This document shows, piece by piece, positions 14,965 through 51,390 of a stretch of DNA of 64,000 bases. The stretch comes from Parcubacteria group bacterium (GTDB lineage Bacteria > Patescibacteriota > Patescibacteriia > Buchananbacterales > UBA6539), in NCBI GenBank assembly GCA_002687175.1, contig NYZP01000001.1, positions 149,607 through 213,606 of the forward strand, given 5' to 3'. The notes under the pieces are model-generated. The model ran no database searches. It had not been told where the DNA came from and worked only from the letters and a program-made list of their open reading frames with translations. Every line of letters starts with the position of its first letter. Position 1 is the first letter of the stretch. The position numbers and the translations under genes are program-made.

Positions 14965-15423
14965 AATTTTATCTTTAATAATTTCAACTTATTTAAAGCT
15001 TTCAGTTGTGATGTTTCAATATGAATTTCTGGTCTTTTTTTTCTAATTTTGGCAACTGCTTGTTTAACAGTTAAACCTTGACTGACAAAATAGGTGGCTA
15101 ACATTGTTGGCGCCCGACCATGACCATTCTTACAATGCATGTAAGTCTTGATTTTATTTTTTACTAAATAATCAATTTGTCGAATACCCAACAACAACTG
15201 ATGTTTTTTTGGTGGGTTGTGGTCTTTTGTAGGCAACCACAAAAAATAATCCACCCCCCCCCCAAGCAGCATCAATTCTTTTTTCTTCTAAACTAATATC
15301 AGCCCGAATGCCTTTTTCTAATAACTCTTTTTTGAAATGCATTTGACAGCAAGAATTACTGCCAACATAAATCATTGGGGTAATTTGATTATATTCCATT
15401 TTAACACCATGTTTTTTTGCCAT
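14961..15423 (-). pseudogene. Dual-specificity protein phosphatase (CX5R) split by a frameshift inside a G10 homopolymer; candidate phase-variable gene
   Basis: ORFs 15172..15423 and 14961..15275 overlap in different frames. The downstream one carries HCKNGHGRAPT (HCx5R). The two frames meet at C10 on the plus strand (15254-15263), which is G10 on the coding strand and encodes a Gly run. G9 or G12 would give one ~165-aa ORF. Confidence 0.6.
15254..15263. repeat. Homopolymeric C10/G10 tract inside a coding sequence
   Basis: Plus strand reads ccaCCCCCCCCCCaag. Confidence 0.9.
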
Positions 15424-24765: not shown

Positions 24766-25213
24766 AAATTCATTAAATAATACTCGTTAATTATATCAAA
24801 AAACCGCCCATAAGGCGATTTTTCGTACCTCTGAAAGTTCGTTTTTTATGTCTTCATACTCTTGGTATCCCTTCGGGGAGCTACTTTTGTAACCAAAAGT
24901 AGCCAAAAGTTCCGGGGGCCTTTATTCGCCTTATGGGCGGTTTACCTATAGCTCTCTCGCCAGGGGCTCAGAACGGCCCCCGGACCCCCGCCCACAAGAA
25001 CATTACTGTGGTATTAAATCTATAGAGGCAAAATCATTAGCAAAAAACTAATAAATGGGGGTTTGGGGGCGGCGCCTTAGCGCCCCTATAGATACGGCAG
25101 AGGGTTAATCAACGTGATAGCGATTCGCCGCCCCCAAGAGTTTTCTGACCACTTTTGCGGCCAAAAGTGGTCACCGCCGTCAGGCAGAACAATACCACAC
25201 GGGTGACAAAAAT
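24766..25213. other. GC-rich, ORF-free, hairpin-dense block (candidate structured RNA or MITE-like element) of undetermined family; on the minus strand it forms the leader of glpX
   Basis: 18-bp perfect inverted repeat AAACCGCCCATAAGGCGA (24798-24815) with its complement at 24920-24937. 9-bp hairpins CTACTTTTG/CAAAAGTAG and CCACTTTTG/CAAAAGTGG. A UUCG tetraloop hairpin (cccTTCGggg). GGGGCGGCG/CGCCGCCCC long-range pair. CCCCCAAACCCCC on the minus strand. No ORF of 60 aa or more. Confidence 0.4.
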
Positions 25214-42469: not shown

Positions 42470-42497
42470 TTTGACCGTTGATTGGACTCGAACCAAA
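42470..42497 (-). other. Orphan tRNA 3'-end-like fragment (T-arm plus acceptor 3' strand), possible att-site remnant
   Basis: The minus strand reads TTGGTTCGAGTCCAATCAACGGTCA (GGTTCGAGTCC T-loop motif) with no matching 5' half nearby. Confidence 0.35.
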
Positions 42498-42522
42498 AAT
42501 TTTTACTAAAATAAGCCATCCG

Positions 42523-42594
42523 CTCCGAGGGCCGGATTCGAACCGGCAACCAATTGATTAACAGTCAACTGCTCTACCATTGAGCTACCTCGGA
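42523..42594 (-). tRNA. tRNA-Asn(GTT), copy A
   Basis: Minus strand reads TCCGAGGTAGCTCAATGGTAGAGCAGTTGACTGTTAATCAATTGGTTGCCGGTTCGAATCCGGCCCTCGGAG. Anticodon loop is CUGUUAA. Confidence 0.85.
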
Positions 42595-42683
42595 GCACAT
42601 GGCTCATTTTTTACTCTATTGCGCTATATTCTAATTTTAAAGTCTTTGACGGAAACCGGTCGGTCAGAAACGCTTCCGGTCTC

Positions 42684-42755
42684 CTCCGGGGGTCGGATTC
42701 GAACCGACAACCAATTGATTAACAGTCAACTGCTCTACCGTTGAGCTACCCCGGA
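42684..42755 (-). tRNA. tRNA-Asn(GTT), copy B (variant stems)
   Basis: Same fold with compensatory changes (CCCCGGA..GTCGG/CCGAC). Confidence 0.8.
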
Positions 42756-42845
42756 GCACATGGCTCATTTTTTTGCTCTACAAACTATATTTTAAATTTT
42801 CAAGCCCCTGACAGGAACCGGTCGCTTTGGAAAGCGTCCGATCTC

Positions 42846-42917
42846 CTCCGAGGGCCGGATTCGAACCGGCAACCAATTGATTAACAGTCAACTGCTCTAC
42901 CATTGAGCTACCTCGGA
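42846..42917 (-). tRNA. tRNA-Asn(GTT), copy C
   Basis: Identical to copy A. Confidence 0.85.
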
Positions 42918-42957
42918 ACTTAATTCTCCTTAATTACTTTTACCTTCTAAACCTTGA

Positions 42958-46015: not shown

Positions 46016-46123
46016 AAAAGTATTGTCATTGTACTCTAATTATCGTTATTTAGGCAAGAAGACTTTGACTAATTAGTGATTTTCTGCTTTAATAGTATAG
46101 TATTAAAAACTTTTCATAATAGA

Positions 46124-46185
46124 GTGGAGGGGTGCCCCCGGCAGCTTGCCCCGTTGAAGAACGGGGCCGGGGCAGGCTCCGTGGT
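46124..46185 (+). other. Degenerate GC-enriched tRNA-Ser-like fragment
   Basis: GGAGGGGTGCC...CTTG...GGGGCAGGCTCCGTGGTC shares its start and the CTCCGTGG block with the tRNA-Ser at 46544 but lacks a T-loop. Confidence 0.35.
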
Positions 46186-46208
46186 CTATAAATATTTATT
46201 AAGAACAA

Positions 46209-46247
46209 AGCGGAGGGGTGCCAGAGTGGTCGAATGGGACAGTCTTG
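46209..46247 (+). repeat. Exact 39-nt duplicate of the 5' half of tRNA-Ser(TGA), truncated inside the anticodon loop
   Basis: AGCGGAGGGGTGCCAGAGTGGTCGAATGGGACAGTCTTG is identical to 46541-46579. The copy ends after CTTG of the anticodon loop and is followed by two GC hairpins (CCCGCC-agag-GCGGG and TCCGCC-ttcg-GCGGA). Confidence 0.85.
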
Positions 46248-46295
46248 CCCGCCAGAGGCGGGTCCGCCTTCGGCGGAAAAACAACTACCTTGAGT

Positions 46296-46580
46296 ATGCC
46301 TTGCACTTATATTTTATATAGTAGGTCAACCAACAAATTTTATACTGGATCAAGCAGAGAAAAAGCCGCTAATAATCGTTTAAAATCACATAACGCCGGA
46401 AAAACTAAATCGACAAAAGCTGGCCGTCCCTGGATAATTATTCATCAAGAAAAATACCAAAATTATACTGATGCCAGAAAAAGAGAAATTTTTTTAAAAT
46501 CAGGTCAAGGACGCAAATATATTAAAACTTTAAACAGCAGAGCGGAGGGGTGCCAGAGTGGTCGAATGGGACAGTCTTGA
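46296..46580 (+). CDS. GIY-YIG nuclease family protein (~94 aa); its 3' end overlaps the 5' half of tRNA-Ser
   Basis: MPCTYILYSRSTNKFYTGSSREKAANNRLKSHNAGK...RPWIIIHQEKYQNYTDARKREIFLKSGQGRKYI gives the GIY...YIG...R...E...N pattern. Confidence 0.55.
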   Translation: MPCTYILYSRSTNKFYTGSSREKAANNRLKSHNAGKTKSTKAGRPWIIIHQEKYQNYTDARKREIFLKSGQGRKYIKTLNSRAEGCQSGRMGQS

Positions 46581-46630
46581 AAACTGTTGAGGCAGCAATG
46601 TCTCCGTGGGTTCGAATCCCACTCCCTCCG
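46544..46630 (+). tRNA. tRNA-Ser(TGA)
   Basis: GGAGGGG-TG-CCAGAGTGGTCGAATGGG-ACAGTC-TTGAAAA-..., long variable arm, GTGGGTTCGAATCCCAC T-arm. No encoded CCA. Confidence 0.85.
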
Positions 46631-46656
46631 CTCTGCTGTTTATTTAACTTATAAGA

Positions 46657-46748
<92 letters not shown>

Positions 46749-46766
46749 TTTTACATTCAGCGAAAT

Positions 46767-48119
46767 ATGGTAGACTCAGCAATAGAACGCGCGCAAAACG
46801 AAAACGAAAACTACGATCGCCTTATTGGCGAGAAAAAAATATTAGAATACCTCAATACTGTATTGAAAGGAGAAAAACCTGAATCGTTTATTGCGCGGCC
46901 AATGAGCCAAGATTGCAAAGTAGCTGTAATGATTCCTGCCTATAATGAAAGTGCGTCAAATATCTTGCGTTCTTTGTCATCTTTAGCAGAACAAGAAGAA
47001 GTCGACCCTAATTTATTTGAGGTTGATTTGGTTGTAAACAATCGCAGAATTGATGCCGAGCAAAACACTCCTGCGTTTTTAGCAAATCAAGAATCAATAA
47101 GATTAATAAAATACATAAATGGCGAATCTCAAGAAATACCAGAAGGTTTAACTACTGAACAAGCTGAACAGATAGAAAAAATAAGAAAGGCGGAAATAAA
47201 AATCAACGTCATTGATAAATCTTCAGTAAATACATCAGATGAAGAAAATAATGTTGGCGTCGCAAGAGATAGGGCTGGGGCTGAAATCCTTGATAGGTTT
47301 ATGAAATCGTCTGGCAACACAGAGGGCGCTCTTGCAATCACTGATTGCGACTGCACATTTTCCCGCAATTTTATAAAGTCGTTAATTCAGTCATTTGAAC
47401 AACATAAAATCAACGGGGTTTCTGGTAATTTAGAGTTTGAAATTGATTCCTCATTGCCCAACCAAGAGTTGATTAAAAAAGCTTTTGATATTTATATGGG
47501 TAAGAACGGGCCCAAACAAGATTATTCAGGTGAGCCTAATTTCAAAATTCAAAAAGAAGGTGCCCTGCAAGCCGGTGCGAATATGGCTGTAACCGCAAAG
47601 GCGTGGGCAATGGTTAATGGAATGCCTAGAATCGCTGGCGGTGAAGATATTCGCTTTGGCAAAAATATTGAAGATTTACGGGGACAAGTAGCAAAAAATT
47701 ACGACTACACTATTACATCCCTTATACGCGTTTCAGAGCGTACCGGCTTGCAGGGCAATGGAAGAATAGTTAAAAAAATAAAAGAATCCGTGGACGATTT
47801 TGTTGCGGGTAAAACAGATAGAATCGTTGTTGAAGATAGAGAAATGGTTGATAAATTTTTTAATGGAGTTTTACGAGCAAATGAAAGTAAGGCGTTAAAA
47901 GGAAAATTATTTTTAGATTTAATGAAAGAATGCAATTTTAAACAAAATAATATTCCTGAGGCAGAATACGATGAACTGGCAAGTGAAATTAATACAGAAT
48001 TGGAAAAACCAAGGTCGGAGCAAGAATTGAAAAAGATTGAAAGATTGATTTTAGAGAAAATTTATCCTTACTATCCAGAAAGAGATGTAACTGATAAAAT
48101 AGTAAAGAAAGAATCTTAG
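46767..48119 (+). CDS. Glycosyltransferase family 2-like protein
   Basis: VAVMIPAYNESASNILRSLSSL GT2 N-terminal motif and ITDCDC. Start taken at the first ATG after the tRNA, since the ORF-track start at 46689 overlaps the tRNA. Confidence 0.5.
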   Translation: MVDSAIERAQNENENYDRLIGEKKILEYLNTVLKGEKPESFIARPMSQDCKVAVMIPAYNESASNILRSLSSLAEQEEVDPNLFEVDLVVNNRRIDAEQNTPAFLANQESIRLIKYINGESQEIPEGLTTEQAEQIEKIRKAEIKINVIDKSSVNTSDEENNVGVARDRAGAEILDRFMKSSGNTEGALAITDCDCTFSRNFIKSLIQSFEQHKINGVSGNLEFEIDSSLPNQELIKKAFDIYMGKNGPKQDYSGEPNFKIQKEGALQAGANMAVTAKAWAMVNGMPRIAGGEDIRFGKNIEDLRGQVAKNYDYTITSLIRVSERTGLQGNGRIVKKIKESVDDFVAGKTDRIVVEDREMVDKFFNGVLRANESKALKGKLFLDLMKECNFKQNNIPEAEYDELASEINTELEKPRSEQELKKIERLILEKIYPYYPERDVTDKIVKKES

Positions 48120-48469
48120 GCGGCGCGCCAACTTCGTTGGCACGAAATTCGGCGACGGCGGAAAGCGAGGGCGGGCAAAAATTCCTTCCCCCCCCCAACC
48201 CCCTTCCTTTTTGCCCGCCCGAGCGTTGGGGTGGGAAGCGGCTCGTCTCTGCGTCAGCAGAGAAGCAAAGCTCGCAAAAATTGTTTCCTTAATTAAAATT
48301 TGCGCGCGCCCATTAAAAGAAAAAGAAATTTTTGCGAGCTTTGCTGGCCGCCGTCAGGCGGCGAGCCGATGGGCGGGTTCACTCAGCGAAATCCGTAGGA
48401 TTTTGCTCAAACATTGTTCGAACTTCGTCCAAAAAACACCGCCACTATTAAAAATCTAAAAAATTATTT
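48120..48469. other. GC-rich, ORF-free, hairpin-dense block of undetermined family between convergent genes
   Basis: UUCG hairpin GCCAAC-ttcg-GTTGGC. Long stem GCGAGGGCGGGCAAAAA...TTTTTGCCCGCCCGAGCG enclosing a C9 run (..TTCCCCCCCCCAACCCCC..). CTCTGC-gtca-GCAGAG and GCCGCC-gtca-GGCGGC hairpins. A ~20-bp long-range pair GAAGCAAAGCTCGCAAAAATT / AATTTTTGCGAGCTTTGC. Shares CCGCCGTCAGGC and the CCCCCAA(A)CCCCC motif with block 24766-25213. Confidence 0.4.
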
Positions 48470-48520
48470 TTAATTAAAAAAATACCCGCTAGATCAATTC
48501 TAGCGGGTATTTAAAATTAA
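48470..48520. terminator. Bidirectional intrinsic terminator
   Basis: ACCCGCTAG-atcaattc-CTAGCGGGT flanked by A-run and T-run. Confidence 0.55.
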
Positions 48521-48524
48521 ATTT

Positions 48525-49268
48525 TTAGTTTAACAAACCATCAATAATTGTAGTAAAGGTGGCCAGAGGATAAGCTCCTTTTACTAATTCACTGTTAACG
48601 AAAGTTCCCGGGGTTCCAGTGATTCCAGCTGCTTGAGCTTCGGCTGCTTGACCATTAACTTTACTGGCATACTTATCTGAATCAAGACAGCTATCAAACT
48701 GACTTTGATTTAAACCAAGATTACCAGCGTATGATTTAAGATTAGTGATTTGTAAAGCAGTTTGATTTTCAAACAAGGTATCATGATATTCCCAAAATTG
48801 GCCCTGTTCACCAGCACATTCAGAGGCCTCGGCCGCTTTTTGAGCTTGAGGGTGAATTGAGTTTAAAGGAAAGTGTCGGTAAACCAATCGAACGTCACCT
48901 TCATACTGTTCTAATACTTGTTCAAGGGTTGGGATGTGTCTTTGACAAAATGGACACTGAAAATCAGAGTACTCTATTAACGTTACCGAAGCATCTACAT
49001 TACCTCTAATGTGATCAGCGTCAGTCACTTCAGCCACCTTGGAACTATCTCCAGTAGAAGGCGGGGATGGAGGTGTTGGTGAAGGCGTTGGAGCAGTGTT
49101 AGTACCGGCTACTGAATCACTGGTAGTTCCTGGTTGATTATCGGTTAACATAACTGCTAGAGCAATAACACTAACAATGGCAATACCTCCTACCAAACCC
49201 ATTACCAAACTTTGCTTGGACGACATGTCAAAAAAATCTCGTTCAGACATAAATTTCAAATTAATCAA
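48525..49268 (-). CDS. DsbA-like thiol:disulfide oxidoreductase with N-terminal TM anchor
   Basis: YSDFQCPFCQRH CxxC motif. Confidence 0.65.
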   Translation of the reverse strand: MINLKFMSERDFFDMSSKQSLVMGLVGGIAIVSVIALAVMLTDNQPGTTSDSVAGTNTAPTPSPTPPSPPSTGDSSKVAEVTDADHIRGNVDASVTLIEYSDFQCPFCQRHIPTLEQVLEQYEGDVRLVYRHFPLNSIHPQAQKAAEASECAGEQGQFWEYHDTLFENQTALQITNLKSYAGNLGLNQSQFDSCLDSDKYASKVNGQAAEAQAAGITGTPGTFVNSELVKGAYPLATFTTIIDGLLN

Positions 49269-51168: not shown

Positions 51169-51293
51169 GGGCTTGTAGCTCAGGGGTAGAGCGTCTGAGA
51201 CCAACATTTTAATCAATCAGTGAGGGTACCCGATCTGTGCGATGATGTTGGAAAATCAGAAAGTCAGGGGTTCAAATCCCTTCAGGCCCACCA
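51169..51293 (+). tRNA. tRNA (Ile-like acceptor and T-arm) with a ~50-nt intervening sequence in the anticodon loop; anticodon unresolved
   Basis: GGGCTTG-TA-GCTCAGGGGTAGAGC-G-TCTGA-[57 nt: GACCAACAT...ATGTTGGAAAA]-TCAGA-AAGTC-AGGGGTTCAAATCCCTT-CAGGCCC-A-CCA. The insert has a 7-bp stem CCAACAT/ATGTTGG. Followed by TTTTTT. Confidence 0.55.
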
Positions 51294-51310: not shown

Positions 51311-51390
51311 GCTGGGGTAGCTCAGTGGTAGAGCTGTTGACTTCTTCGGATAGTTGATGGTCGGGGGTTCAAATCCCTCCTCCAGCTCCA
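51311..51390 (+). tRNA. Atypical tRNA, candidate tRNA-Arg(UCG) with an apparently extended (8-bp, G:U-rich) anticodon stem
   Basis: GCTGGGG-TA-GCTC-AGTGGTA-GAGC, anticodon loop CUUCGGA, GGGGG-TTCAAAT-CCCTC T-arm, CTCCAGC-T-CCA. There are 28 nt between the D and T stems where 22-23 are expected. Direct repeat GTTGA...GTTGA. Confidence 0.45.

What the first reader, a model, noticed from the sequence alone, without database searches (positions are those of the whole stretch)
48120..48480. Second GC-rich hairpin-dense block between convergent genes, sharing motifs with the glpX leader block
There is no promoter requirement here because the position is 3' to 3'. The block holds a UUCG hairpin, two GUCA-loop hairpins, a ~20-bp long-range stem and a C9 homopolymer. 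It shares CCGCCGTCAGGC and a CCCCCAA(A)CCCCC motif with 24766-25213, hinting at a dispersed family of structured elements or MITEs. The C9 tract is another potential slippage site.
Basis: seen in the sequence. Interest (0 to 1): 0.55.

Follow-up and report, generated by a model that had tools for sequence, protein, structure and literature searches.

The report
End repeat of recombinase gene cassettes
The hairpin-rich block is one copy of a widespread, apparently undescribed structured repeat of Parcubacteria-type bacteria that marks the end of serine-recombinase-linked gene cassettes inserted next to tRNA genes; the copy here is a leftover of a decayed cassette.

Summary
The hairpins, the 19-bp stem and the C9 run are all present (fold z = -9.2). 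The link to the glpX-leader block is not supported: only a 12-mer and a 13-mer are shared, and family profiles hit the window once, at 48118-48444.

The block belongs to a large modular repeat family, here called "E" (median 193 nt). At least 120 metagenome contigs carry its exact 26-nt 5' motif, and two related genomes carry it after the same GT2 gene.

- **Position:** E starts 0-10 nt after the stop codon of a co-oriented gene.
- **Structure:** its helices show compensatory changes and G·U wobbles on that strand.
- **No match:** there is no Rfam, phage, plasmid or viral-contig hit.
- **Complete units:** an inverted second copy lies 1.4-5.7 kb upstream. Between the copies are an XRE regulator gene and varied cargo (DNA methylases, GmrSD, serpin, glycosidases; GT2 here).
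- **Recombinase link:** the inner copy directly precedes a large serine recombinase (LSR) gene whose far end abuts a tRNA gene.
- **Junctions:** in four loci the E 3' tip (…CCGCCA or …CACCA) and the tRNA 3' end are followed by the same sequence.

I read E as the recombination-site-bearing end repeat of tRNA-targeting cassettes. The window holds a solo relic beside tRNA-Ser(GGA). The RNA-level role is unresolved.

The parts
48118..48444 (+). Element E, solo right-end copy. At 327 nt it is the longest of 49 full copies (median 193 nt).
   Evidence: nhmmer with family profiles: 5' domain 48119-48225 E = 2.4e-32, 3' domain 48387-48443 E = 3.9e-8, 5' module 48118-48163 E = 1.8e-15. No other hit in the window. 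Length statistics.
48121..48157 (+). 5' module. Helix P1' pairs 48121-48126 with 48152-48157 and encloses hairpin P2 (48127-48132 / 48136-48141, loop UUC). The first two conserved bases, AG at 48118-48119, overlap the GT2 stop codon.
   Evidence: The consensus structure is 98% paired in 28 sequences. Two P2 pairs have 13 double compensatory changes each. One-sided changes in P1' are G·U. Boundary consensus.
48165..48224 (+). Hairpin P4. The 13-bp stem pairs 48169-48181 with 48208-48220. A GC clamp and a tandem G·A sit at its base. The C-rich loop spans 48182-48207 (C9 at 48188-48196, AA, C5).
   Evidence: The stem is replaced by different complementary sequences in other subfamilies. C-run statistics.
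48240..48368 (+). Window-specific inserted three-way module. It has an outer stem, two GUCA-loop hairpins, and the 19-bp stem 48264-48282 / 48327-48345 around an AT-rich segment containing GCGCGCGC.
   Evidence: Absent from L001/L002 and from the commonest family form. Folding. No sequence match in the other loci. A module of similar architecture occurs in L001 at about 95-215 (by eye).
48369..48444 (+). 3' domain ending in the tip GTTCGAAC…CACCGCCA (tip 48437-48444).
   Evidence: Conserved with L001/L002 and the family. The same kind of tip is interchangeable with a tRNA 3' end at junctions in L002, L028, L050 and L063.
46767..48119 (+). GT2 glycosyltransferase gene, the cargo gene of the cassette. 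It is 5'-truncated relative to its orthologues.
   Evidence: Pfam Glycos_transf_2 E = 5.5e-8. 85% amino-acid identity to L001/L002. DNA homology to both starts at 46755, inside their longer ORFs.
46657..46746 (+). tRNA-Ser(GGA), the probable integration target. It ends …CTCTCCGCCA.
   Evidence: ARAGORN and Rfam. In L002 the complete cassette with the same cargo abuts a tRNA-Ser(GGA).
46747..46766 (+). A 20-nt remnant, AGTTTTACATTCAGCGAAAT, between the tRNA-Ser 3' end and the GT2 start codon.
   Evidence: The identical 20-mer follows the E tip …CACCGCCA in L003. I infer it is the start of the lost recombinase-side segment.
48480..48512 (-). Intrinsic terminator of the DsbA-like gene. It is not part of E.
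   Evidence: 14-bp stem followed by a T-run on the - strand.

Best explanation
The block is a solo copy of 'E', a modular, hairpin-rich repeat of about 170-330 nt. E forms the ends of a family of small gene cassettes in Parcubacteria-type (candidate phyla radiation, CPR) bacteria.

**Shown: the complete unit.** Its order is tRNA gene | X (a 120-135-nt segment found on both sides of the recombinase gene) | large serine recombinase (LSR) gene, antisense to the tRNA | X inverted | E (inner copy, same sense as the recombinase) | face-to-face promoters | XRE/HTH_3 regulator gene | 1-6 cargo genes | E (outer copy, starting 0-10 nt after the last stop codon) | flank.

**Shown: the junctions.** The last 5-6 nt of E (…CCGCCA or …CACCA) match the discriminator base plus CCA end of the partner tRNA. 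In four loci the same X sequence follows both the tRNA end and the E tip.

**Inferred: the mechanism.** The E tip is the element-side half of the recombinase's crossover site. A circular form would carry E|X as attP. Recombination with a tRNA 3' end would give tRNA|X on one side and E|flank on the other.

**Inferred: the window locus.** The window holds the E|flank side of a GT2-carrying cassette integrated at tRNA-Ser(GGA). A deletion from 20 nt inside the recombinase-side segment to about codon 50 of GT2 removed the recombinase, the inner E and the regulator.

**Inferred and weaker: an RNA role.** E is transcribed in the sense direction in both positions, as the 3' end of the cargo operon and as the leader of the recombinase mRNA. 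Its helices are kept by compensatory and G·U changes on that strand. The bulk of E therefore probably also acts as an RNA structure. Possible roles are 3'-end protection or processing of the cargo mRNA and control of recombinase expression, but the sequence does not identify which.
For: - Family membership: profile hits with E = 2e-32. Homologous elements follow the orthologous GT2 gene in L001 and L002, with different downstream genes.
- Spread: at least 120 contigs carry the exact 5' motif.
- Orientation: 99 of 117 copies follow a co-oriented ORF, mostly 0-10 nt after its stop.
- Structure: 98.1% of cells are paired against 37-51% when partners are slid, and 0 of 500 shuffles reach the covariation score. 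There are 21 G·U cells against 7 A·C cells.
- Architecture: there are 44 inverted pairs, 39 of them with an XRE gene next to the inner copy (HTH_3 E = 1e-16).
- Pairing frequency: of 29 outer-type copies with at least 4 kb of upstream sequence, 16 have an inverted partner and 18 have an XRE gene.
- Recombinase link: 10 of 13 inner-type copies with enough downstream sequence are followed within 700 nt by the recombinase start, against 2 of 59 outer-type copies.
- Recombinase identity: Resolvase + Recombinase + Zn_ribbon_recom, found in 45 of 122 loci.
- Cargo: diverse, and includes restriction-modification and other defence genes.
- tRNA overlap: a tRNA gene, or in L050 a tRNA 3' fragment, overlaps or adjoins the recombinase 3' end in 5 of 5 loci where that end is present.
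- Junction identity: tRNA|X equals E|X in L002, L028, L050 and L063, and the tip matches the tRNA's discriminator plus CCA.
- Window relic: tRNA-Ser(GGA) plus a 20-mer that follows an E tip in L003. Homology to the complete units starts inside GT2. The window has no XRE or recombinase gene.
- Leader transcription: a promoter-like TTGTCA-17-TAGTAT site points into the inner copy in L063 and L001.
Against: - No excised circle, empty site or transcript was observed, so mobility and the crossover position are inferred from junction comparisons in four loci.
- Large serine recombinases normally need only about 40-50-bp sites. That does not explain 170-330 nt of conserved structure or the inverted second copy.
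- The same junction data fit an alternative in which X-recombinase-X is a separate IS-like unit inserted between a tRNA end and an E end.
- About 40% of outer copies with long flanks have no partner or regulator, and some copies are only the 42-nt 5' module.
- Loci were selected by one 5' motif and include near-identical strains, so counts are not independent.
- Contigs that break or turn at repeats (L047, L051) may be chimeric.
- The search for an empty site through DsbA homologues failed.
Confidence: 0.6

Rival explanations
1. E is primarily a functional RNA. It would be a family of 3'-UTR or leader elements (a stabiliser, a processing signal, a C-rich protein- or Rho-binding platform, or a trans-acting small RNA). 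Its link to recombinase cassettes would be secondary.
For: - Strict sense orientation directly after stop codons.
- Compensatory and G·U changes on the transcribed strand.
- The two C-tract loop is kept while the stem sequence is replaced in other subfamilies.
- The 42-nt 5' module occurs alone between tandem genes.
- A promoter-like site points into the inner copy.
Against: - No Rfam family matches.
- One copy has the loop flipped to G-rich (L001 1-100), which fits DNA-level palindrome behaviour better than a fixed RNA ligand.
- Many stems are perfectly complementary.
- The recombinase/tRNA junction pattern is not explained.
- No expression data exist.
Confidence: 0.15
2. The pair of E copies are the long terminal inverted repeats of a transposase-less cassette of the MIC type (mobile insertion cassette) or foldback type. 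X-recombinase-X would be a separate IS-like element with 120-135-bp inverted ends. It would insert into the quasi-palindromic site made by a tRNA 3' end facing an E 3' end.
For: - The recombinase gene is bracketed by inverted X copies.
- L001 has the E pair, the XRE gene and cargo but no recombinase, with two E copies tail to tail.
- The sequence joints on both sides of the recombinase are symmetric: …CCGCCA|AAATTG… and its inverse.
Against: - It requires a tRNA and an inverted E to lie tail to tail beforehand at several different tRNAs (Ser, Arg, Leu, and an Ile-adjacent fragment).
- In L002 the outer E flank (AAAATAAAAT…) resembles the start of X (AAAATTGAAAAT…), as expected if E|X and tRNA|flank were the two parental sites.
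- Single E copies have no target-site duplication.
Confidence: 0.13
3. The inverted E copies are sites for recombinase-driven inversion of the regulator-cargo segment, a flip-flop switch. Because the likely recombinase promoter lies inside that segment, inversion would switch recombinase expression.
For: - A serine recombinase lies next to a segment flanked by inverted repeats.
- Both relative orientations exist in different loci. The recombinase is divergent from the XRE gene in at least 11 loci. It follows cargo and E in the same direction in L028 and L052.
- Contigs L047 and L051 carry the recombinase on both sides.
- The promoter-like site toward the recombinase lies inside the segment.
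Against: - Symmetric contigs can be repeat-induced assembly errors.
- Known invertases are small serine recombinases with short sites.
- Inner and outer copies differ systematically in hairpin P2, which frequent exchange across the whole repeat would erase.
- No read-level evidence is available.
Confidence: 0.08
4. The block is a chance cluster of GC-rich hairpins or an ordinary transcription terminator region with no family identity.
For: It sits between convergent genes, where terminators are expected, and a true terminator lies next to it.
Against: The fold z-score is -9.2. E lacks a U-tract. It has highly significant profile matches and hundreds of relatives.
Confidence: 0.01

Closest known systems
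Integrative elements that use a large serine recombinase (phage-type serine integrases, attP x attB)
   Same: - The recombinase has Resolvase, Recombinase and zinc-ribbon domains and sits at one end of the unit.
- The joints share only a short core with the target.
- A Cro/CI-type regulator is transcribed from facing promoters.
   Different: - The target is the extreme 3' end of tRNA genes.
- The element-side arm is a 170-330-nt conserved, structured repeat rather than a site of about 50 bp.
- That repeat is present twice in inverted orientation, and the recombinase gene is bracketed by inverted X copies.
- No recombination directionality factor or phage genes were seen.
- No match was found in phage, plasmid or viral-contig collections.
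Tycheposons of Prochlorococcus (Hackl et al., bioRxiv 10.1101/2020.12.28.424599)
   Same: They are small cargo-carrying elements that integrate at tRNA genes in streamlined genomes. They leave tRNA-like remnants and decayed, integrase-less cargo islands, and a minority use large serine recombinases.
   Different: - 910 of 937 of the elements described in that paper (tycheposons and related cryptic elements) use tyrosine recombinases. Many carry replication modules, and their flanking repeats are partial tRNAs.
- Here no replication genes were seen. The flanking repeat is not a recognisable tRNA (ARAGORN and the Rfam tRNA model are negative). It is inverted and structured, and an XRE gene leads the cargo.
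Integron attC sites and the integron platform (from my own knowledge)
   Same: - A structured, imperfectly palindromic site of variable length with conserved, mutually complementary ends.
- It lies directly after, and sometimes overlaps, the stop codon of a promoter-less cargo ORF in a fixed orientation.
- The recombinase gene is divergent from the cargo, with a site copy and a promoter between them.
- Cargo is very diverse.
   Different: - The recombinase is serine-type, not the tyrosine IntI.
- There is usually one E per operon of 1-6 genes rather than one per ORF.
- The inner and outer sites are homologous and inverted.
- An XRE gene always leads the cargo.
- Folding of one DNA strand as the substrate was not tested.
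Mosaic extragenic repeats (REP/BIME of enterobacteria, BOX of pneumococci, Correia/ERIC elements; from my own knowledge)
   Same: - GC-rich palindromic modules are combined in variable order at gene 3' ends.
- They are co-transcribed with the upstream gene.
- Orthologous sites carry different module combinations (L003 against L046, L013 against L069).
   Different: - E has a fixed 5' and 3' module and is linked to a recombinase/regulator architecture.
- The single 64-kb window examined holds only one copy. No whole genome could be scanned.
- No RAYT-type transposase was seen.
Mobile insertion cassettes (MICs: IS-type inverted repeats flanking passenger genes; from my own knowledge)
   Same: Inverted repeats bracket passenger genes with no transposase between them (for example L001).
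   Different: The repeats are 170-330 nt and structured, not 20-50-bp IS ends. No target-site duplication was tested for pairs and none was found for single copies. The associated enzyme is a site-specific serine recombinase.

Membership tests
Any Rfam family (4227 models) | Covariance-model score at or above the gathering threshold | tested here: not met
   The window and 20 related loci give only tRNAs at the gathering threshold. In the block, the best sub-threshold hits (E >= 0.03) are generic hairpin or terminator look-alikes.
tRNA / tRNA-like gene | Cloverleaf recognised by ARAGORN or the Rfam tRNA model | tested here: not met
   E is not called in the window or in the loci scanned. Only the tip (GTTCGAAY…NCCA) resembles a tRNA 3' end.
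MITE | Target-site duplication flanking the element | tested here: not met
   38 distinct full copies show 3-6-nt flank matches no more often than shuffled pairings.
MITE | Terminal inverted repeats | tested here: inconclusive
   5' GGCGGCG and 3' CACCGCC are complementary at 6 of 7 positions in one subfamily. Other 3' types (…CGCACCA, …GCGACCA) fit less well.
MITE | Many copies per genome, inserted in either orientation | tested here: not met
   There is one copy in the 64-kb window. Orientation is strongly tied to the upstream gene, 99 of 117. Whole genomes could not be scanned.
Same family as the glpX-leader block 24766-25213 | Alignable sequence or a shared profile | tested here: not met
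   Only a 12-mer and a 13-mer are shared. No HMM hit. No match of block B to 122 loci.
Intrinsic terminator | GC-rich hairpin followed by a U-run | tested here: not met
   The scan finds only the separate hairpin 48480-48512 on the - strand. E ends in …AAAAAACACCGCCA.
Att-site arm of a large-serine-recombinase integrative element | Large serine recombinase gene adjacent to the site | tested here: met
   Met in related loci: 10 of 13 inner copies are followed by the gene, and the Pfam triad is present. Not met in the window itself, which has no recombinase.
Att-site arm of a large-serine-recombinase integrative element | Hybrid junctions sharing a short core with the target site | tested here: met
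   tRNA|X and E|X junctions are identical from …C(G/A)CCA onward in L002, L028, L050 and L063.
Att-site arm of a large-serine-recombinase integrative element | Excision or integration demonstrated (circle junction, empty site) | not testable with these tools
   There is no read-level access. The empty-site search through DsbA homologues found only relatives at 70% identity or less with different neighbours.
Integron attC | Tyrosine recombinase IntI with an attI site and Pc promoter next to the array | tested here: not met
   The associated recombinase is serine-type.
Integron attC | Site directly 3' of each cassette ORF, in fixed orientation | tested here: inconclusive
   E abuts the last ORF of each unit. 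Usually one E serves 1-6 genes. Only a few loci show ORF-E-ORF-E (L075, L089).
Tycheposon | tRNA-targeting integrase plus replication module, flanked by partial tRNAs | tested here: not met
   No primase, helicase or polymerase was found among the cargo sampled, and the largest recurrent protein clusters show none (most clusters were not scanned against Pfam). The flanking repeat is E, not a partial tRNA. Features taken.
Invertible segment (serine invertase type) | Both orientations present in one population | not testable with these tools
   Both arrangements are seen only across different loci. The symmetric contigs are ambiguous.

The most novel reading that the evidence does not exclude
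E is not just a passive end. It would be the folded recognition element of a serine-recombinase cassette platform, in one of two forms. In the first, the folded DNA or RNA of E, which sits in the recombinase leader and after each cargo operon, is the actual substrate that lets the enzyme capture and exchange cargo, as attC does in integrons. In the second, E acts as an RNA cofactor that directs the enzyme to tRNA 3' ends. The fit between the E tip and the partner tRNA end, and in L002 a loop sequence CCCCUCC identical to the tRNA-Ser acceptor strand, would then reflect target matching.
Probability: 0.1. Interest if true: 0.9.

Novelty: new variant of a known kind. Interest (0 to 1): 0.66.

Why it matters
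Mobile DNA in candidate phyla radiation (CPR, Patescibacteria) bacteria is poorly charted. I found no paper in the searchable library that links serine recombinases or structured repeats to these organisms.

If the reading is right, a single conserved motif of about 190 nt flags a whole class of cassettes that move defence genes, surface-modification genes and secreted-enzyme genes between these tiny genomes. It would also explain some of the GC-rich, hairpin-dense intergenic blocks that stand out in their AT-rich DNA.

The family gives three practical handles:
- a search handle for cargo islands in metagenomes;
- natural recombinase/site pairs that target tRNA 3' ends;
- a test case for why a serine recombinase system keeps a large structured repeat, which could be an RNA or folded-DNA function not known for this enzyme class.

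It also matters for assembly, because contigs break or turn at these repeats.

Tried and rejected
- **Rfam.** Gathering and permissive scans of the window, both blocks and 20 related loci gave nothing but tRNAs.
- **Homology with the glpX-leader block.** Rejected.
- **Guide-RNA idea (TnpB/IscB omega-RNA at a gene 3' end).** Dropped because the upstream protein is a GT2 glycosyltransferase.
- **Small ORFs inside the block** (48211-48459 +, 47989-48198 -). No Pfam hit, and family copies differ by indels that are not multiples of three.
- **Terminator.** Only the neighbouring hairpin qualifies.
- **Common transposase after truncated copies.** The ORFs that follow truncated copies are unrelated ordinary genes.
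- **Viral or plasmid origin.** No hit in IMG/VR contigs, GenBank phages or PLSDB plasmids.
- **MITE-type target duplications.** None found.
- **Empty-site test through DsbA homologues.** gatC-gatA-dsbA synteny holds, but the downstream neighbours differ and no close relative was available.
- **Consensus fold for the 3' domain.** RNAalifold gave none across subfamilies. Single-sequence folds suggest two mutually exclusive pairings, GAGCG with CGYUC against the P4 base, so that part is left unresolved.
- **Single-sequence fold of the commonest 178-nt form.** It is only weakly better than shuffles (z = -1.9). The structural support therefore rests on the comparative data.
Full report
**What is in the window.** The block lies between the stop codon of a GT2 glycosyltransferase gene and a convergent DsbA-like gene.
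- The GT2 gene spans 46767-48119 on the + strand, with TAG at 48117-48119.
- The DsbA-like gene spans 48525-49268 on the - strand. It has its own terminator hairpin at 48480-48512.
- A further perfect 13-bp stem presents the C-rich loop.
- The region 48110-48520 folds far better than shuffled sequence: z = -9.2 on the + strand and -7.8 on the - strand.

**The proposed sister block.** The glpX-leader block 24766-25213 shares only an exact 12-mer and a 13-mer with one mismatch. The pairwise E-value is 0.015, and it is 2.2 against the whole window. Profiles built from the family described below hit the window once, at 48118-48444, and do not touch block B at E < 10. Block B also matches none of the 122 related loci. 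The two blocks are not members of one family.

**Known RNA families.** Rfam finds only tRNAs in the window. Nothing credible appears in either block even at E <= 10.

**A large family elsewhere.** A genome scan with the GT2 protein returned two loci with 85% identical proteins: L001 (Parcubacteria group bacterium Licking1014_17) and L002. Both carry a homologous structured element starting at the GT2 stop codon, followed by different genes.

No match exists in IMG/VR viral contigs, GenBank phages or PLSDB plasmids.

I call the element E. Full copies have a median length of 193 nt, and the window copy is the longest at 327 nt. E is modular:
- a constant 5' module, GGCGGCGC-[hairpin P2]-ACGAAATTCGGCGGCGG;
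- a hairpin P4 whose loop carries two C-tracts;
- optional inserted hairpins at several positions;
- a 3' domain ending in GTTCGRAY…CCA.

The extra 130 nt in the window (48240-48368) form a three-way insert with no sequence match in the other loci. The first C-tract is C6 in 75 of 86 loops and ranges from C4 to C9, so the window's C9 is an expanded variant.

**Structure and strand.** I tested a consensus of three helices (P1', P2, P4) on 28 diverse copies.
- 98.1% of cells are paired, against 37-51% when partners are slid.
- No shuffle out of 500 reaches the covariation score.
- Two P2 pairs each show 13 double compensatory changes.
- One-sided changes are mostly G·U on the + strand (21 cells), against 7 A·C cells that would be wobbles on the other strand.
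- In other subfamilies the P4 stem is replaced by different complementary sequences, while the two-C-tract loop is kept.

This favours folding of the strand that runs in the same sense as the upstream gene. One copy has the loop flipped to G-rich (L001 1-100) and many stems are perfect, so DNA-level palindrome dynamics also act. The 3' domain gave no single consensus fold.

**Position rule.** In 99 of 117 copies the nearest upstream ORF is co-oriented and ends within 150 nt of E, in most cases 0-10 nt before it. The conserved 5' border is A-G-G-C before GGCGCGCC, so the AG often forms part of a TAG stop codon, as it does here. Single copies have no target-site duplication.

**The wider architecture.** Profile searches of the 122 loci (628 kb) found 170 copies.
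- In 44 cases a second copy lies 1.4-5.7 kb upstream in inverted orientation.
- This inner copy has a different P2 hairpin, ATTTCGC-AAA-GCGAAAT.
- In 39 of the 44 pairs, a 62-114-aa XRE/HTH_3 gene lies next to the inner copy and reads away from it. It is followed by 1-6 co-directional genes, the last of which ends at the outer copy.
- Cargo is diverse: three kinds of DNA methylase, GmrSD-HNH, a serpin, a GH5 cellulase, GH130, Ppx/GppA and a TrpRS-like protein. In the window, L001 and L002 the cargo is GT2.
- The commonest protein in the loci is a large serine recombinase with Resolvase, Recombinase and zinc-ribbon domains, present in 45 loci.
- It starts within 700 nt downstream of 10 of 13 inner copies, in the same orientation. 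Only 2 of 59 outer-type copies have this.
- Of 29 outer copies with at least 4 kb of upstream sequence, 16 have the inverted partner and 18 have the XRE gene.
- A promoter-like TTGTCA-17-TAGTAT site points into the inner copy in L063 and L001. E would therefore be transcribed in the sense direction both as the recombinase leader and as the cargo 3' end.

**Junctions with tRNA genes.** Where the recombinase 3' end lies inside the locus (5 of 5 loci), it overlaps or adjoins a tRNA gene on the other strand, or in L050 a tRNA 3' fragment.

In L002, L028, L050 and L063 the tRNA 3' end and the E tip are followed by the same 120-135-nt sequence X. Identity begins at …CCGCCA (tRNA-Ser) or …CACCA (tRNA-Leu, tRNA-Arg, and a tRNA 3' fragment). 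The E tip therefore matches the discriminator base and CCA of its partner tRNA.

In L002 the outer E is followed by AAAATAAAAT and a terminator. This resembles the start of X, as expected for the two products of one exchange.

**Reconstruction of the window locus.**
- GT2 is immediately preceded by tRNA-Ser(GGA) at 46657-46746. The complete L002 unit also abuts a tRNA-Ser(GGA).
- A 20-nt piece, AGTTTTACATTCAGCGAAAT, follows the tRNA. The same 20-mer follows an E tip in L003.
- DNA homology to L001 and L002 begins at 46755, inside their longer GT2 ORFs.
- The window has no XRE gene, no recombinase and no inner E.
- The last 12 nt of the 20-mer resemble the GT2 sequence at the breakpoint in L002 (ATTCATCAAAAT). 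This suggests a microhomology deletion, which is an inference.

The finding is therefore the surviving outer end of a decayed cassette.

**How it most likely works.** The architecture and the junction identities are shown. The rest is inferred.

I infer that the E tip is the element-side half of the recombinase crossover site at tRNA 3' ends. E|X would be attP, tRNA|X one integrated junction, and E|flank the other.

The size and conserved folding of E, and its duplication in inverted orientation, are not explained by what serine integrases are known to need. An added RNA role is likely but undefined. It could be 3'-end protection or processing of the cargo mRNA, or control of the recombinase leader.

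Three rivals remain:
- E is mainly a functional RNA family.
- X-recombinase-X is a separate IS-like unit inserted between a tRNA end and an E end.
- The recombinase inverts the cargo segment. Both orientations occur across loci (L028 and L052 against at least 11 others), and two symmetric contigs exist, although those may be assembly errors.

**Comparison with known systems.** The unit works like a serine-integrase integrative element. Ecologically it resembles the tRNA-targeting, cargo-carrying tycheposons of Prochlorococcus. It differs in enzyme class, in lacking replication genes, and in having the structured inverted repeat. In placement and form E resembles integron attC sites and mosaic repeats such as BIME or BOX, but defining features of those families are not met (see the membership table). 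My literature searches found no description of this family or of serine-recombinase cassettes in CPR bacteria. That library is incomplete.

**Caveats.**
- Near-identical strains inflate the counts.
- Metagenome contigs tend to break or misjoin at such repeats.
- No reads, transcripts or complete genomes could be examined.
- An empty-site test through DsbA homologues failed for lack of close relatives.

Noticed in passing
window 46101-46631: Two 5' fragments of tRNA-Ser are present: 46114-46136, and 46207-46247, which is 94% identical to the start of the intact gene. They lie beside a GIY-YIG nuclease ORF (46296-46580, Pfam E = 5e-11) that runs into the intact tRNA-Ser(TGA) at 46544-46631. This looks like a selfish nuclease gene inserted next to a partly duplicated tRNA. 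GIY-YIG genes or fragments also lie just downstream of E in L001, L098 and L116.
   Followed up: partly
window 51169-51290: The Rfam tRNA model matches a 122-nt stretch. It is a tRNA with an insert of about 50 nt after the anticodon stem, which ARAGORN did not call. The neighbouring tRNA-Lys (51311-51390) is also long, at 80 nt.
   Followed up: no
window 24766-25213: The glpX-leader block is itself GC-rich and full of inverted repeats, for example 24801-24818 with 24926-24943 and 25146-25173. It has no Rfam match and no relative among the 122 loci, and it remains unexplained.
   Followed up: partly
window 42472-42918: Three tandem tRNA-Asn(GTT) genes lie in a repeat of about 161 nt.
   Followed up: no
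window 15255-15264: This is a C10 homopolymer, longer than the C9 in the finding. Its context was not examined.
   Followed up: no
L001 1-443: Two E copies lie tail to tail with no recombinase between them. The first has the P4 hairpin with a G-rich loop (GGGGGGTGTGGGGGG), the flipped form of the usual C-rich loop. It also has a three-way insert that resembles the window's insert in architecture.
   Followed up: partly
L051 and L047 (whole contigs): These contigs are symmetric, with the recombinase gene on both outer sides of the E pair. This is either inversion polymorphism of the cargo segment or an assembly chimera through the repeat.
   Followed up: no
L001 562-765 and L002 4512-4715: The XRE genes that lead the same GT2 cargo (85% identical) are only 45% identical to each other. 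Each is 86-93% identical to XRE genes of units with other cargo, so regulator and cargo modules are shuffled.
   Followed up: partly
L009, L050, L061 and others, between the inner E and the XRE gene: A conserved hairpin, GTTGTGT-GCGCACGGGTGGGCGGGGCAA-ACACAAC, has a compensatory stem variant GTTGCCC…GGGCAAC. It has no Rfam match and its role is unknown.
   Followed up: no
L045, L075, L076, L089, L119, L120: In these loci only the 42-nt 5' module of E is present. It ends after GGCGGCGG and is followed by an ordinary promoter and gene. In L075 and L089 the next gene is again followed by an E copy, giving ORF-E-ORF-E arrays.
   Followed up: partly
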